DNA from: an uncultured Alphaproteobacteria bacterium
Lineage (GTDB): Bacteria > Pseudomonadota > Alphaproteobacteria > CAAHEQ01 > UBA3637
Length of the DNA: 64,000 nucleotides
Assembly: GCA_944392795.1 (NCBI GenBank)
Contig: CALXXX010000024.1
Location: 215 to 64,214, forward strand
Direction of reading: 5' to 3'
Position 1 is the stretch's first letter. Every line of letters starts with the position of its first letter. The notes beneath the pieces were generated by a model. The model had not been told where the DNA came from. It did no database searches and was given only the letters and a program-made list of their open reading frames with translations. Position numbers and translations under genes: made by a program. This document shows positions 50,535 through 54,298 of the stretch, one piece after another.

Positions 50535-51599
50535 ATGAAAGATTTAGTGGGCTTGTCCCGCGAAGCGCTTCTGACCGAAGTCACAGCTTTAGGTGAGAAG
50601 CCTTTTCGCGTTAAGCAATTGTGGCAATGGATTTATAACAAAGGCGTAACTGATTTTACGCAGATGACAAATATTGCCAAACCTTTACAAAAACGATTAG
50701 CGGAAAATTATTTTATTTCAAGACCTCAAATCGTCACAGAAAAAAACTCAACGGATAAAACACGCAAATGGCTTTTCCGCTTCGCAGACGGAAAAGAAGT
50801 CGAAACCGTTTATATTCCAGAAGAAGATCGTGGAGCAGTTTGTCTATCCACCCAAGTGGGCTGTCAAATGGGATGCCGCTTCTGTCACACAGGGACACAA
50901 GGCTTTACGCGCAATTTAACTGCCGGCGAAATCGTCGGCCAATTTATGGCCGCGCGAGACAGTTATGGTGAATGGCCCTCCCCCACAGATGAAACGCGTT
51001 TTTTATCAAATGTTGTCGTCATGGGCATGGGTGAACCGCTTATGAATTACGATAATTTAGTAACGGCGATGCGAATCTTAATGGACGGAGAAGGAATTGC
51101 TTTATCTAAACGTCGAATAACCGTTTCAACCTCCGGTATTGCTGATAAAATTCCGAACTTAGCAACGGATTTGGGGGTAAAACTAGCTGTCAGCTTACAT
51201 GCTCCGACTGATGATATCCGAAATCAAATTATGCCTATTAACCGACGTTTTCCTTTAAAGGATTTAATGGAAGCTTGTAAAGAATACCAACAAAAATTAG
51301 AGCATCGTCAATATATTACAATGGAATACGTTATGTTGAAAGATGTTAACGACTCGATTGAGCAAGCTCATCAATTGATTGATTTGGTTAAGGGATTGGA
51401 AGTAAAATTTAATCTGATTCCTTTTAATCCCTGGGACGGTTGTCCTTACGAATCTTCTTCTAACAATGCCATCCGCCGCTTTCAAAAAGTTTTAGAAGAT
51501 GCTTGGTTCCCTGCGCCGATTCGCGTTTCCAGAGGCCAAGACATTATGGCCGCCTGTGGTCAACTTAAATCCGTTTTCCACAAAGAACAAAAGAAATAA
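50535..51599 (+). CDS. rlmN: 23S rRNA m2A2503 methyltransferase
   Basis: CLSTQVGCQMGCRFC, VMGMGEPL, SLHAP, DIMAACGQL. Confidence 0.97.
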   Translation: MKDLVGLSREALLTEVTALGEKPFRVKQLWQWIYNKGVTDFTQMTNIAKPLQKRLAENYFISRPQIVTEKNSTDKTRKWLFRFADGKEVETVYIPEEDRGAVCLSTQVGCQMGCRFCHTGTQGFTRNLTAGEIVGQFMAARDSYGEWPSPTDETRFLSNVVVMGMGEPLMNYDNLVTAMRILMDGEGIALSKRRITVSTSGIADKIPNLATDLGVKLAVSLHAPTDDIRNQIMPINRRFPLKDLMEACKEYQQKLEHRQYITMEYVMLKDVNDSIEQAHQLIDLVKGLEVKFNLIPFNPWDGCPYESSSNNAIRRFQKVLEDAWFPAPIRVSRGQDIMAACGQLKSVFHKEQKK

Positions 51600-51667
51600 G
51601 CTATTTTTACATGAAAAGGTATGCATTTTTTACCTTTTATTAAGAGATTATATCGTATTTTGACTCT

Positions 51668-51706
51668 CAAGAGAAGAAATTGCCCACGGGCAATTGAATT
51701 TTCTTG
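51668..51706. repeat. Inverted repeat upstream of the pilin pair (operator-like)
   Basis: AATTGCCC-AC-GGGCAATT (51678-51695) with outer arms CAAGAGAA/TTTTCTTG, abutting TTGTCT-N17-TAGTTT. Confidence 0.55.
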
Positions 51707-51779
51707 TCTTCCAAAATCAGCTATGCTAGTTTTGGAATTGGTTAATTAACCTATAACTTATAAGAAAAGGATTTTTAAA

Positions 51780-52184
51780 ATGAAAAATACTCAACAAGGT
51801 CGTTCTATGATTGAAATGCTCGGCGTTTTAGCCATTATCGGTGTTTTGTCCATCGGTGGCTTGGCTGGTTACACAATGGCGATGAACCGCCACAGAGCAA
51901 ACCAAATTTTGGACTATGTCTCTCGTGCTGTTGTTATTGCTCAAACAAAGGGCGATGGTGCACAATCCATCGATGATACTTGCCAAAACATTTTGGATGG
52001 TGAAGCAGTTCCTGTCTCTGGCATGACTTGCGAAGTAGATCGTACAGCTGGTATCGATCAAAATACAACAGTCACAGTTGGTGGTGTTAATGAACGTATT
52101 GCTGCTGCTTTAGCAAACCGCTCCGGCAACCAAGTAACAATTACATCCACTTCAAATGGTGCTAATTTCACATTCATGAATTAA
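51780..52184 (+). CDS. Type IV pilin-like protein, copy 1
   Basis: QQG|RSMIEMLGVLAIIGVLSIGGLAGY; 134 aa; one Cys pair. Confidence 0.88.
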   Translation: MKNTQQGRSMIEMLGVLAIIGVLSIGGLAGYTMAMNRHRANQILDYVSRAVVIAQTKGDGAQSIDDTCQNILDGEAVPVSGMTCEVDRTAGIDQNTTVTVGGVNERIAAALANRSGNQVTITSTSNGANFTFMN

Positions 52185-52206
52185 TTTTCTGAAAGGATTT
52201 TTAAAA

Positions 52207-52614
52207 ATGAAGAATACTCAACAAGGTCGTTCTATGATTGAAATGCTCGGCGTTTTAGCCATTATCGGTGTTTTGTCCATCGGTGGCTTAGCCGGTTACA
52301 CAATGGCCATGAACCGTCACAGAGCAAATCAAATCTTGGACTATGTCTCTCGTGCTGTTGTGATCGCTCAAACAAAGGGTGATGGAACACAGGAAATTTC
52401 GAATGAAAATTGCTCTACCATTTTAGATGGTGAAGATGTTCCAGTCTCCGGCATGGGATGTACAGTGAACAAAACAGCTGGCTATGCAAATATCACTGTT
52501 TCTGTAACAAATGTTAACAGCCGTATTGCAGCTGCTTTACAAAATCGTTCCGGTAACCAAGTAACGATTACATCTACTTCAAACAGTGCTGCTTTCACTT
52601 TTGCAAGTTCATAG
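52207..52614 (+). CDS. Type IV pilin-like protein, copy 2
   Basis: First 60 aa identical to copy 1; diverged C-terminal half; same AAAGGATTTTTAAA leader. Confidence 0.88.
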   Translation: MKNTQQGRSMIEMLGVLAIIGVLSIGGLAGYTMAMNRHRANQILDYVSRAVVIAQTKGDGTQEISNENCSTILDGEDVPVSGMGCTVNKTAGYANITVSVTNVNSRIAAALQNRSGNQVTITSTSNSAAFTFASS

Positions 52615-52630
52615 TTTGCAAAATGAGGAA

Positions 52631-52661
52631 AAAACGCTCCGAGGTATCGGAGCGTTTTTTT
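52631..52661 (+). terminator. Strong terminator after the pilin pair
   Basis: AAAACGCTCCGA-GGTA-TCGGAGCGTTTT plus T-run. Confidence 0.88.
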
Positions 52662-52683
52662 ATATCTTTTTATGAACGAAATA

Positions 52684-52712
52684 TTGACGCTTTTCTTCAT
52701 TTTTCCTATGAT
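52684..52712 (+). promoter_or_regulatory. Candidate sigma70 promoter of the GT41 gene
   Basis: TTGACG-N17-TATGAT. Confidence 0.65.
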
Positions 52713-52732
52713 AAAAAGAAAAAAGGAAAATA

Positions 52733-54298
52733 ATGAACACAGCTTTAGATCTTCTTAACAAAGGCGTTGAATACGCACAAAATAAAAATTACACTCAAGC
52801 GGAAAAATGTTTCCGTCAATCCCTAGAACTGGATCCGAATAATCCTGTTACTATTCGAAACCTTGGCAACGCTTGCGCAGCAGATGGCCGAATGACGGAA
52901 GGGCTTGTCTATCTGACACAATACTTGGATATGAGACCTGACGACTTAGAAACCATGGGACATGTCCTTTACTTAAAGTATAATTACTGCATTTGGAATG
53001 GATTAGAAAGAATGCAGGAACGCCTTAAAAAAGGATTACAAGAACATACTCTGCAATCCGAACCTAAACTTTTATTTTTGGGAATGACTTTCGAAGAACG
53101 CTATCACTATATGACGAAGCTAGCCGCAGAGAACAAAAAACTTTCTCTTTTGCGCAAAGAAAAACCTTTCTCATTACCAACTTATCAACACGACAAGTTA
53201 AAAGTCGGTTTTTTCACAACAGATATAGGACCTTCTCCTTGTGGTTTTGTCATTGCCAGTTTATGGGAAAACTTATCTCACGATGATTTTGAATGGCATT
53301 GTTTTTCTTGCCGAAAACTTTCCGATAAGCCTGAAGATGCTCCCTTAATAAAGCGGCACAAGGCGGCTTTTGATTTTTTCCATGACGTCTCGAATATAAA
53401 AGACTTCCGCATGATGGCTGATACCATAGCAAAAGAAGAAATTGATATTTTAATTGATGTCAATATGCTTATCAATTCAATGTATCCGGCTTTATATTAC
53501 AAGCCTGCACCGATTATCGTAAATTATTTAGGCTATCCTTCGACAACAGGCTTGCCTTGGTATGATTATATGATTGCAGATGCTTGGACCGTTCCTTCAG
53601 AAAAAGAACGTTGGTTTACAGAAAAAATTATTCGTATGCCTCATTGTTATCATTGTGTTGACACAAACCCTGAAACTTATCCAGGGCTTGCACCTAAATC
53701 GATTCTAGGACTTCCAGAAAAAGGAACTATTTTTGCCTGTTTAAATTCTCCGTTTAAAATTACACCTCACTATTGGGATATGTGGATGCGAATTTTAAAG
53801 GCTGTTCCTGACAGTATCCTTTGGTTACGTTCTTTTAATTTTGAAACTGATGAGAAATTTAAAGAAGAAGCTAAAAAACGCAATATTAATCCCAACAGAA
53901 TTATTGTCTTGCCGAAAATGCCAACTCATGCAGACTTTCTGTATTGCTTCAAAAATGCTGATTTATTTCTGGACACAGAAATGTACAACGCACATTCAAC
54001 TGCTTTAGAGAGTCTTTTCTGTGGTGTCCCCCTTATTACTTGTCCAGGAGACTCTTATGCCTCACGCGTTTCATCCAGTATGCTGCATGCCTTCGGATTA
54101 GATGAGATGATTTGCAAGACAGAAGAAGAATATGAAAAAAAAGCAATTGAACTTGGTCTTAATACAGAAAAGCTCAATTGTCTTAAAGCAAAAACCGTTG
54201 CGTTAATGACACAAAATAATCCACTGTTTGATATGAAATCTTATGCACGAGATTTTGAGAAGCTTTTACGACAAATTTCATCTAAAAAGAATTCTTAA
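52733..54298 (+). CDS. TPR-containing GT41 (OGT/SPINDLY-like) glycosyltransferase
   Basis: About two N-terminal TPRs; PAPIIVNYLGYPSTTG, FACLNSPFKIT, DLFLDT..YNAHST, PGDSYASRVSSSML. Confidence 0.9.
   Translation: MNTALDLLNKGVEYAQNKNYTQAEKCFRQSLELDPNNPVTIRNLGNACAADGRMTEGLVYLTQYLDMRPDDLETMGHVLYLKYNYCIWNGLERMQERLKKGLQEHTLQSEPKLLFLGMTFEERYHYMTKLAAENKKLSLLRKEKPFSLPTYQHDKLKVGFFTTDIGPSPCGFVIASLWENLSHDDFEWHCFSCRKLSDKPEDAPLIKRHKAAFDFFHDVSNIKDFRMMADTIAKEEIDILIDVNMLINSMYPALYYKPAPIIVNYLGYPSTTGLPWYDYMIADAWTVPSEKERWFTEKIIRMPHCYHCVDTNPETYPGLAPKSILGLPEKGTIFACLNSPFKITPHYWDMWMRILKAVPDSILWLRSFNFETDEKFKEEAKKRNINPNRIIVLPKMPTHADFLYCFKNADLFLDTEMYNAHSTALESLFCGVPLITCPGDSYASRVSSSMLHAFGLDEMICKTEEEYEKKAIELGLNTEKLNCLKAKTVALMTQNNPLFDMKSYARDFEKLLRQISSKKNS

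What the first reader, a model, noticed from the sequence alone, without database searches (positions are those of the whole stretch)
51762..52614. Tandem pilins with constant N-termini, mosaic variable C-termini and a gene-conversion-like tract
Seen: residues 1-60 are identical, with 11 synonymous differences by hand alignment. Codons 3-27 (75 nt) have none, while 10 fall in codons 28-60. Distal halves alternate conserved blocks (ILDGE, VPVSGM, RIAAAL, NRSGNQVTITSTSN) with variable ones, including compensating indels. Both have SDs and share one terminator. Established: conserved/variable mosaics underlie Neisseria pilin variation. Inference: two co-expressed antigenic variants homogenised by recombination at the 5' end.
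Basis: partly seen in the sequence, partly recalled or inferred. Interest (0 to 1): 0.65.

Follow-up and report, generated by a model that had tools for sequence, protein, structure and literature searches.

The report
Tandem pilin genes exchanging sequence tracts
Two adjacent, complete pilus-subunit genes of an uncultured gut alphaproteobacterium keep an identical N-terminal half, partly through copying between the two genes, while the exposed half varies strongly between strains; this is a familiar pilin pattern found in a new organism, not a Neisseria-style cassette system.

Summary
Genes A (51780-52184) and B (52207-52614) encode 134- and 135-aa pilin-like proteins. Residues 1-60 are identical, with 11 synonymous differences and a 77-nt identical run (P=0.013). 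Each gene has its own ribosome-binding site, and they share one terminator.

Both genes have one-to-one orthologs in two sister species, so the duplication is old. In the 5' 180 nt, A and B of one genome are closer to each other (dS 0.23-0.33) than to their orthologs (0.85-0.98). Site patterns run 16-18 against 3-5. The variable core shows the reverse. This is concerted evolution, specific to one lineage.

Among 14 strains of the sister species, diversity is about 0 in the 5' halves and at most 0.01 in most flank windows. It peaks at 0.12 in A's 3' half. Several alleles carry short tracts of the other paralog, and one strain has a private haplotype in both copies.

The genome holds no silent cassettes and no G4 motif. 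It does encode a type IVb-like pilus machine, a prepilin peptidase, RecA and MutS.

Verdict: co-oriented pilin paralogs shaped by purifying selection, gene conversion between the copies and strain-level diversification. It is a new member of a known kind.

The parts
51678..51695 (+). Terminator-like hairpin closing the upstream rlmN gene. The pilin promoter must lie between here and 51779. No clear sigma-70 consensus was found there.
   Evidence: scan; rlmN ORF 50535-51599
51765..51771 (+). Ribosome-binding site of gene A (AAAAGGA, 8 nt before the ATG).
   Evidence: read directly from the sequence; 18 of 25 upstream bases are shared with B's leader
51780..52184 (+). Gene A: 134-aa prepilin-like protein. 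It has leader MKNTQQG, predicted cleavage G|RSMIE, an alpha-1 helix, and a head with two Cys (C68, C85).
51786..51862 (+). 77-nt tract in A identical to B 52213-52289. This is the candidate most recent homogenised tract.
   Evidence: run P=0.013; orthologs in G001 and G002 differ here
51960..52181 (+). Variable head-coding half of A. Paralog-specific core is at gene nt 251-309. Shared blocks lie at nt about 213-240 and 310-396.
52191..52197 (+). Ribosome-binding site of gene B (GAAAGGA), inside the 22-nt A-B spacer.
52207..52614 (+). Gene B: 135-aa prepilin-like paralog. Residues 1-60 are identical to A; overall identity is 83%.
52628..52661 (+). Intrinsic terminator shared by A and B (15-bp stem followed by a T run).
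52733..54298 (+). Neighbouring gene: TPR + GT41 glycosyltransferase. It sits next to the pilins only within this genus, so it is listed as context and not as a proven part.

Best explanation
A and B are an old tandem duplication of a small type IV pilin-like gene in an uncultured, reduced-genome (1.29 Mb) gut alphaproteobacterium. They are probably transcribed together from one promoter to one terminator. The products would be cut after Gly7 by the genome's prepilin peptidase and assembled by its single type IVb-like machine.

Three processes shape the pair.
1. Strong purifying selection holds the N-terminal alpha-1 helix invariant.
2. RecA-type homologous recombination between the two direct repeats (start codons 427 bp apart) copies tracts from one gene to the other. 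In the lineage of this genome and its nearest sister it has homogenised the ribosome-binding site and the 5' 180 nt (concerted evolution). Elsewhere it moves short tracts (about 10-50 nt, possibly up to about 200 nt) within the head-coding half.
3. The head, especially of A, is kept highly diverse between strains, most likely by diversifying selection on an exposed surface (phage or host antibody).

Shown: the anatomy, orthology, synonymous-site pattern, mosaic alleles, diversity profile, and presence of the machinery.

Inferred: pilus incorporation, co-transcription, RecA dependence and the selective agent.
For: Pilin identity
- Class III signal motif: TIGR02532 scores 16.7 bits against a cut-off of 16.3.
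- The AF2 head model has pLDDT 90.9, with a long helix packed on a 5-stranded sheet.
- A prepilin peptidase is present.
- The cluster on C40 holds TcpQ, a secretin, PAP_PilO, a T2SSE ATPase and a T2SSF platform protein.

Old duplication
- A and B have one-to-one syntenic orthologs (rlmN-A-B-GT41) in G001 and G002.
- 14 sites are fixed between the paralogs across lineages, all at nt 251-308 and 399-404.

Concerted 5' end
- Differences per 162 nt: A-B 10 (G000) and 8 (G001), against A-A or B-B 20-23 to G002.
- dS 0.33 and 0.23 against 0.85-0.98.
- Three-taxon patterns in nt 1-180: paralogs together 16-18 against orthologs together 3-5 (p 0.003-0.027). The core nt 251-309 reverses this (6-8 against 15-19). 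Fisher p=0.005 and 0.0004.
- G002's A and B differ at about 10 sites in codons 3-27, so there is no general nucleotide-level constraint.
- Codons 52 and 58 show A_G0=B_G1 but A_G1=B_G0.

Short tracts in the variable half
- Runs of the other paralog's diagnostic sites in A_L099 (P=0.002), A_L097/L101/L102 (P=0.001) and A_L104/L106 (P=0.004). Combined P=6e-7.
- The same tracts recur in independent samples.
- Strain L109 has a private TCAAAAATC...GAT haplotype in both copies.

Diversity
- In most flank windows pi is at most 0.01 (0.055 at one alignment edge, up to 0.025 in the last GT41 windows). In the 5' halves it is about 0. It peaks at 0.12 in A's 3' half and 0.04 in B's.

Recombination genes
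- RecA and MutS are present.

A second case
- In G002 the second tandem pair, C/D, has its own 41-nt identical 5' tract.
Against: - The formal tests are weak where the data are short. ML trees point the predicted way (A_G2+B_G2 80/85 for the 5' part; A-ortholog clade 71/73 for the 3' part). However, AU tests do not reject the alternative trees (p 0.18 and 0.08).
- PHI is not significant in four of the five partitions tested. In the sister-species set p=0.99 (A+B) and 0.52 (A alone), and the two 5'-only partitions give 0.77 and 0.37. PHI is significant only for G000/G001 whole genes (p=0.0015).
- Synonymous sites between G000 and G002 are near saturation. Some 'lineage pattern' sites could therefore be parallel changes under strong codon bias.
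- All strain alleles come from short-read metagenome assemblies. The most dramatic chimera (L084) sits on a 765-bp contig. The single-gene form (L107) joins at a 32-nt repeat in a k=31 assembly, so both may be artefacts.
- piN/piS in the head is 0.5-0.8, not above 1, so positive selection is not demonstrated.
- Foldseek finds no significant PDB match (best is C. difficile PilW, E=0.017 and 0.078). Pfam N_methyl is below its cut-off.
- There are no expression data.
Confidence: 0.68

Rival explanations
1. There is no recombination. The N-terminal identity is purely purifying selection on the alpha-1 helix, together with strong codon bias that limits synonymous change. The mosaics are recurrent mutation at a few hypervariable sites.
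For: - Residues 1-60 are invariant across all alleles and nearly so across the family.
- All paralog pairs, including ones that do not exchange sequence, are least diverged at nt 55-108. This suggests some codon-level constraint.
- PHI is not significant in four of five partitions, and the AU tests are not decisive.
Against: - Constraint cannot explain why A and B differ at 21 of 162 sites in G002 but at only 8-10 in G000 and G001.
- It cannot explain the reversal of site patterns between the 5' end and the core.
- It cannot explain runs of 3-4 adjacent donor-type sites, or a strain-private multi-site haplotype present in both copies.
Confidence: 0.08
2. The mosaic alleles are assembly artefacts. 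Short-read assemblers switch between A and B, or between co-occurring strains, at shared k-mers.
For: - Many contigs break inside A's 5' repeat.
- L107 joins rlmN directly to B across a 32-nt identity in a k=31 assembly.
- L084 is a 765-bp contig whose 3' junction lies in a 23-nt identity.
Against: - The A_L099 tract has only an 11-nt identity on its left. It lies within about 60 nt of A-specific sites in a contig named k119 (my reading: MEGAHIT final k=119), so every 119-mer was seen in reads.
- The same tracts recur in three independent samples and assemblers (L097, L101, L102; also L104-L106).
- The concerted-evolution signal comes from three long, syntenic contigs of 55-68 kb.
Confidence: 0.1
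3. This is a programmed, high-frequency antigenic variation system of the Neisseria pilE/pilS type, with one copy acting as donor for the other.
For: - The constant and variable parts are arranged as in PilE.
- Tract transfer between the copies occurs.
- A is far more polymorphic than B in the sister species, as expected for one acceptor and one donor.
Against: - Both copies are complete, each with a ribosome-binding site, and lie in one operon.
- There are no silent, 5'-truncated cassettes anywhere in the 99%-complete genome.
- No G4 motif is present.
- Each copy is conserved as an ortholog across three species.
- Tracts are few per allele, and flanks of the same strains are nearly identical. 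This fits evolutionary-time events rather than switching within a clone.
Confidence: 0.06
4. A and B are not fibre subunits. They are pseudopilins, or other proteins that merely use the class III signal for export or anchoring, like the roughly 30 other G|RSMIEML proteins in this genome.
For: - The N-terminal module is shared with about 30 genes of 57 to 863 aa.
- Arg at +1 is atypical.
- No significant structural or sequence match to a solved pilin was found.
- The gene in the major-pilin position of the type IVb-like cluster is a different family member.
Against: - A-D are the only small members (127-139 mature residues) with a compact helix-plus-sheet head.
- The small pilins are conserved across the family of genomes. 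They often lie next to rlmN and are often in tandem.
- Hypervariability of the head is typical of exposed major subunits.
- Only one pilus-type machine was found, and no separate type II secretion set.
Confidence: 0.15

Closest known systems
Neisseria gonorrhoeae/meningitidis PilE with silent pilS cassettes (gene-conversion antigenic variation; e.g. PMC4023411, review PMC4534519)
   Same: - The pilin has an invariant N-terminal helix and a mosaic of conserved and variable blocks in the head.
- Variable tracts are transferred non-reciprocally between homologous copies.
- Strain-level diversity is high.
   Different: - Here there are two complete, co-oriented, probably co-expressed genes, not one expression locus with many promoterless 5'-truncated cassettes.
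- No G4 or sRNA element is present.
- There is no evidence of high-frequency switching.
- The machine is type IVb-like and the mature N-terminus would be Arg.
Concerted evolution of duplicated bacterial genes by RecA-dependent gene conversion (classic case: tufA/tufB of Salmonella and E. coli; from my own knowledge, not checked here)
   Same: - Paralogs within a genome are more alike than orthologs at synonymous sites.
- The homogenisation is specific to a lineage.
- It depends on stretches of identity.
   Different: - Here only part of the gene (ribosome-binding site, 5' 180 nt and some internal blocks) is homogenised.
- A paralog-specific core is preserved, and the rest is hypervariable between strains.
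Tandem major-pilin paralogs in other bacteria (e.g. Kingella kingae pilA1/pilA2, Pseudomonas stutzeri pilAI/pilAII, Synechocystis pilA1/pilA2; from my own knowledge)
   Same: Two adjacent pilin genes share the N-terminal region and have diverged heads.
   Different: - Those are type IVa systems with Phe or Met at +1.
- As far as I know, tract exchange between the copies and a strain-level diversity profile have not been part of their description.
Type IVb pili of IncI plasmids (R64 PilS/PilV with shufflon), TCP and BFP
   Same: The machinery content and order match: TcpQ-like, secretin, PilO (PF06864), ATPase, platform, then a pilin gene. In those systems too, the exposed C-terminal part varies.
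   Different: - R64 varies PilV by site-specific inversion (shufflon). Here variation comes from homologous exchange and allelic diversity.
- The leader (7 aa) and mature size (127 aa) are much shorter than in classical type IVb pilins.

Membership tests
Type IV pilin / pseudopilin superfamily | Class III signal: short basic leader, Gly at -1, Glu at +5, followed by about 20 hydrophobic residues | tested here: met
   - Sequence MKNTQQG|RSMIEMLGVLAIIGVLSIGGL.
- NCBIfam TIGR02532 scores 16.7 bits against a cut-off of 16.3.
- Pfam N_methyl scores 18.0, below its 21.2 cut-off.
- The +1 residue is Arg, which is atypical.
Type IV pilin / pseudopilin superfamily | A prepilin peptidase (A24) and an assembly machine (ATPase, platform, secretin) in the same genome | tested here: met
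   - PF01478 scores 62 bits at C15.
- T2SSE scores 227 bits, and the secretin, T2SSF, PAP_PilO and TcpQ are on C40.
Type IV pilin / pseudopilin superfamily | Lollipop fold: a long alpha-1 helix packed against an antiparallel beta-sheet | tested here: inconclusive
   - AF2 models: pLDDT 81 for the full protein and 90.9 for the head. They show helix 3-56 plus 5 strands and 2 short helices.
- The best Foldseek PDB hit is the pilin PilW of C. difficile, at only E=0.017/0.078 and TM 0.39-0.52.
- A profile search against PDB sequences gives E=0.41 to a PilA.
Type IV pilin / pseudopilin superfamily | Incorporation into a surface fibre | not testable with these tools
   This needs purification of pili or cryo-EM. 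The organism is uncultured.
Type IVb pilins (TcpA/BfpA/PilS class) | Long leader (15-30 aa) and a large mature protein (about 180-200 aa) with the type IVb head topology | tested here: not met
   The leader is 7 aa and the mature protein 127-128 aa. No fold match to type IVb pilins was found. Only the machinery is type IVb-like.
pilE/pilS-type antigenic variation | A repertoire of silent, promoterless, 5'-truncated cassettes that donate to one expression locus | tested here: not met
   tblastn and blastn of the four head domains against the whole genome hit only the four complete genes, plus one weak 30% match.
pilE/pilS-type antigenic variation | A G-quadruplex-forming element upstream of the expression locus | tested here: not met
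   No G4 motif on either strand in 51400-52900.
pilE/pilS-type antigenic variation | High-frequency variation within a clonal population | not testable with these tools
Concerted evolution by gene conversion between paralogs | Paralogs in one genome are more similar than orthologs, in a region-specific and lineage-specific way | tested here: met
   - 5' dS is 0.23-0.33 against 0.85-0.98.
- Site patterns are 16-18 against 3-5 and reverse in the core.
- The pattern is absent in G002.
- AU tests are not decisive.
Concerted evolution by gene conversion between paralogs | Contiguous donor-type tracts in acceptor alleles | tested here: met
   - Painting of 78 diagnostic sites.
- Run tests give P=0.001-0.004 for three tracts, 6e-7 combined.
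- A private haplotype is shared by both copies in L109.
- PHI is not significant in four of five partitions.

The most novel reading that the evidence does not exclude
The pair may be a minimal antigenic diversification device with two cassettes. Both copies would be expressed, and each would serve as template for the other. Short-tract conversion, seeded by the homogenised 5' end and the conserved internal blocks, would then keep producing new mosaic pilin heads in a reduced-genome human and animal gut commensal. It would do this without silent cassettes, invertases or G4 elements. The strong asymmetry in the sister species (A hypervariable, B nearly fixed) would reflect a division of labour between an acceptor and a donor.
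Probability: 0.15. Interest if true: 0.6.

Novelty: new member of a known kind. Interest (0 to 1): 0.38.

Why it matters
Strain-level surface variation in gut commensals bears on phage predation, IgA recognition and strain coexistence. These reduced-genome gut Alphaproteobacteria are uncultured, and their pili appear undescribed: the one paper I found on such lineages (order Rs-D84, which may or may not be this organism's order; PMC12306168) reports no type IV pili for them.

The locus gives a clean, compact example of three forces acting on one 0.85-kb operon: purifying selection, concerted evolution and diversification. It is also a convenient marker for telling strains apart in metagenomes.

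There is a practical point too. The family's shared 5' module breaks short-read assemblies, so pilin repertoires in these MAGs are systematically under-assembled.

Tried and rejected
- PHI recombination test: not significant in four of five partitions. The test is poorly suited to very short tracts clustered in a hypervariable stretch. I report it as evidence against rather than dropping it.
- AU topology tests on the 162-nt and 228-nt partitions: the direction is as predicted, but p=0.18 and 0.08.
- Silent-cassette search with head domains at protein and nucleotide level: nothing found.
- G4 motif search: none.
- Foldseek of the full and head-only AF2 models against the PDB: no significant hit.
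- Profile search against PDB sequences: E=0.41.
- Functional link to the downstream TPR-GT41 glycosyltransferase: the adjacency holds only within this genus, so I did not include it in the mechanism.
- L107 (one gene between rlmN and GT41) as evidence of unequal crossing-over: rejected as unreliable, because the junction is a 32-nt identity in a k=31 assembly.
- Positive selection on the head: piN/piS is 0.5-0.8 and pairwise dN/dS 0.06-0.38, so it is not shown.

Full report
**1. The observation**

The window is contig C24:215-64214 of a 1.29-Mb genome in 41 contigs, 99% complete.

- Gene A (51780-52184, 134 aa) and gene B (52207-52614, 135 aa) lie 22 nt apart on the + strand.
- Residues 1-60 are identical. 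The DNA differs at exactly 11 synonymous positions: codons 2, 28, 29, 34, 37, 41, 43, 52, 53, 58 and 60.
- The longest identical run is 77 nt, from gene nt 7. With 11 changes spread at random over the 55 codons that can change synonymously, so long an unchanged run has P=0.013.
- The distal halves alternate shared blocks with variable ones and carry two opposite one-codon indels.
- Each gene has an AAAGGA ribosome-binding site.
- There is no terminator between the genes, a strong one at 52628-52661, and a weaker hairpin at 51678-51695 after rlmN.

The description is therefore accurate.

**2. What the genes are**

*Signal and fold*
- The N-terminus MKNTQQG|RSMIEMLGVLAIIGVLSIGGL is a class III (prepilin) signal with Gly at -1 and Glu at +5. 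It has Arg at +1.
- NCBIfam TIGR02532 is just above its cut-off (16.7 against 16.3 bits). Pfam N_methyl is below its cut-off (18.0 against 21.2).
- AlphaFold models show a 54-residue helix followed by a compact head of five strands and two short helices (full length pLDDT 81; head alone pLDDT 90.9 and pTM 0.83). This is the general pilin architecture.
- Foldseek finds no significant PDB relative. The best hit is the C. difficile pilin PilW, at E=0.017 and 0.078. A profile search of PDB sequences gives only E=0.41 to a PilA.

*Machinery*
- The genome encodes one A24 prepilin peptidase.
- Contig C40 carries a cluster of a TcpQ-like protein, a secretin, PilO (PF06864), a T2SSE ATPase and a T2SSF platform protein, followed by another pilin-like gene. 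This is a type IVb-like gene set.
- The leader (7 aa) and mature size (127-128 aa) of A and B are much smaller than in classical type IVb pilins. I therefore file them as type IV pilin-like, not as type IVb pilins.

*Family context*
- About 30 genes in this genome share the G|RSMIEML module. Many sit at contig ends, which shows that the repeat breaks the assembly. This agrees with earlier notes on this genome.
- A and B belong to a subgroup of four small members. The other two, C and D, form a second tandem pair on C34.

*Organism*
- The closest public records are 'uncultured Alphaproteobacteria bacterium' MAGs from human and animal gut metagenomes.

**3. Age of the duplication**

- Two sister species (G001 = CASDQF01, G002 = CALXUB01) have the same rlmN-A-B-GT41 arrangement. 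Each holds one ortholog of A (92% and 84% identical) and one of B.
- Fourteen sites are fixed between A and B in both lineages. All lie at gene nt 251-308 and 399-404. B's codon-94 deletion is also shared.
- The duplication therefore predates the split of these species.

**4. Concerted evolution of the 5' half**

| Comparison, 162 nt from Gly-1 to GDG | Differences | dS |
|---|---|---|
| A vs B within G000 | 10 | 0.33 |
| A vs B within G001 | 8 | 0.23 |
| A vs B within G002 | 21 | 0.76 |
| Orthologs, G000 or G001 vs G002 | 20-23 | 0.85-0.98 (G000-G002) |

- Three-taxon site counts in nt 1-180 give 'paralogs together' 16-18 against 'orthologs together' 3-5 (p=0.003-0.027). In the core, nt 251-309, the counts reverse (6-8 against 15-19). 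The contrast is significant (Fisher p=0.005 and 0.0004).
- No site in the first 180 nt is a fixed A/B difference across lineages, while six sites are fixed lineage differences shared by both paralogs.
- G002's A and B differ at about ten synonymous sites in codons 3-27. The identity in the window is therefore not a general constraint on the mRNA.
- The similarity extends into the untranslated leader in G000 and G001 (18-20 of 25 bases) but not in G002 (14 of 25).
- Since G000 and G001 split there are signs of further exchange. Flanking rlmN has dS of about 0.10, and C and D differ by 0-1 per 162 nt. Over the same distance, A and B orthologs differ by 6-8 per 162 nt. Codons 52 and 58 show the incompatible pattern A_G0=B_G1 but A_G1=B_G0.
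- In G002 it is the other pair, C/D, that carries a 41-nt identical 5' tract.

Caveats:
- ML trees of the two partitions differ in the predicted direction with moderate support, but AU tests do not reject the alternatives (p=0.18 and 0.08).
- G000-G002 synonymous sites are saturated in flanking genes.

**5. Population data**

I collected 22 complete A and 28 complete B sequences from the window and 28 public metagenome loci.

*Diversity in 14 strains of the G002 species*
- Most flank windows (rlmN, GT41) have pi between 0 and 0.012. One alignment-edge window reaches 0.055 and the last GT41 windows reach 0.016-0.025.
- Both 5' halves have pi of about 0.
- A's 3' half peaks at 0.12 and B's at 0.04. 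This is roughly 10-fold or more above the typical flank.
- Synonymous diversity is also concentrated in the 3' half of A (piS 0.10 against 0.00), and piN/piS there is 0.51.

*Tracts of the other paralog*
Painting 78 sites that distinguish A from B shows contiguous tracts:

| Allele(s) | Tract (gene nt) | Diagnostic sites in run | P |
|---|---|---|---|
| A_L099 | 193-199 | 4 | 0.002 |
| A_L097, L101, L102 | about 318-327 | 3 | 0.001 |
| A_L104, L106 | 334-342 | 3 | 0.004 |
| B_L109 | A-type tract | 3 | 0.05 |

- The combined P is 6e-7.
- Strain L109 carries a private TCAAAAATC...GAT haplotype in both A and B, and in no other strain.
- The L099 contig is named k119. If that is MEGAHIT's final k, which is my inference from the name, the tract and its paralog-specific flanks were seen together in reads.
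- Two tracts recur in three independent samples each.
- Allele combinations also reassort. L089 pairs a G001-type A with the G000-type B.

*Less secure observations*
- L084 is an A gene whose nt 156-338 are B-type. It sits on a 765-bp contig.
- L107 has a single gene between rlmN and GT41. Its junction is a 32-nt identity in a k=31 assembly.
- PHI is not significant in four of five partitions.

**6. What it is not**

- Searching the genome with the four head domains finds no extra, truncated copies.
- No G4 motif lies near the locus.
- Both genes are complete and conserved.

A pilE/pilS-type cassette mechanism is therefore not supported. RecA and MutS are present, so ordinary homologous recombination between the direct repeats is the economical mechanism.

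**7. Assessment**

The inference of recombinational homogenisation at the 5' end is supported, and it extends to short tracts in the head. The Neisseria analogy holds for the pattern but not for the mechanism.

An invariant helix with a variable head, tandem pilin paralogs and gene conversion between bacterial duplicates are all well known. What is new is the organism, the atypical Arg at +1 in this pilin family, and a compact, well-resolved example with population data.

Noticed in passing
G000:C34:48210-49127 (- strand; outside the window): There is a second tandem pair of small pilin genes (C, 146 aa; D, 141 aa) with the same N-terminal 50 residues. Each has an ortholog in both sister species. 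In G002 the C/D pair has a 41-nt identical 5' tract that the G000 pair lacks.
   Followed up: partly
G000 contig ends: C9, C19, C20, C22, C23, C24:71-217, C28, C35, C37 (both ends), C40:20436-20673: At least 11 contigs end inside a nearly identical pilin-like 5' module (GRSMIEMLGVLVIVGVLSIAALFGFTYAMNKYKANETIHDV...). Only one such gene is fully assembled (C32:12127-14688, 853 aa). The family's shared module breaks the short-read assembly, so the repertoire is under-assembled.
   Followed up: partly
window 52733-54298: A TPR + GT41 glycosyltransferase lies directly downstream of the pilins. Both pilins carry conserved N-x-S/T sequons (N[TI]T, NRS). The adjacency holds only in this genus and not in other genera with rlmN-linked pilins. 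In G001 the gene matches in two frames (337 + 122 aa), which suggests a frameshift or an assembly error.
   Followed up: partly
L027, L028, L030, L036, L038, L042 (other genera): A small pilin gene lies next to rlmN in several other genera of the family, in either orientation. Tandem small pilins also recur (L033, L036, L053). The rlmN-pilin linkage is therefore older than this genus.
   Followed up: no
L103:1-1094 (ENA ERZ16268208 scaffold_116340): A gene identical in protein to the common G002-species B allele sits behind a completely different upstream gene (a 128-aa ORF). The join is at B's own ribosome-binding site. This is either a relocated copy or a chimeric contig.
   Followed up: no
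L089 (ENA ERZ16268189 scaffold_68229): This strain combines a G001-type A allele with the G000-type B allele. The two 'species' therefore exchange alleles at this locus, or the species boundary is blurred here. Local flank identity is about 98-99%.
   Followed up: partly
G000:C40:1221-2018 (- strand): A 265-aa ORF starts with a soluble, charged N-terminus (MNKYDEIEKLARLKEKGVITEEEF...). It matches the pilin over query residues 11-118 at 39% identity, so it is a pilin-like domain without the usual class III leader context.
   Followed up: no
window 51780-52614 versus whole window: The two pilin genes have 42-43% G+C against 37.5% for the window. Their synonymous divergence to G002 (pS about 0.5) is lower than in the flanking genes (pS about 0.75). 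This is consistent with strong codon bias from high expression.
   Followed up: partly
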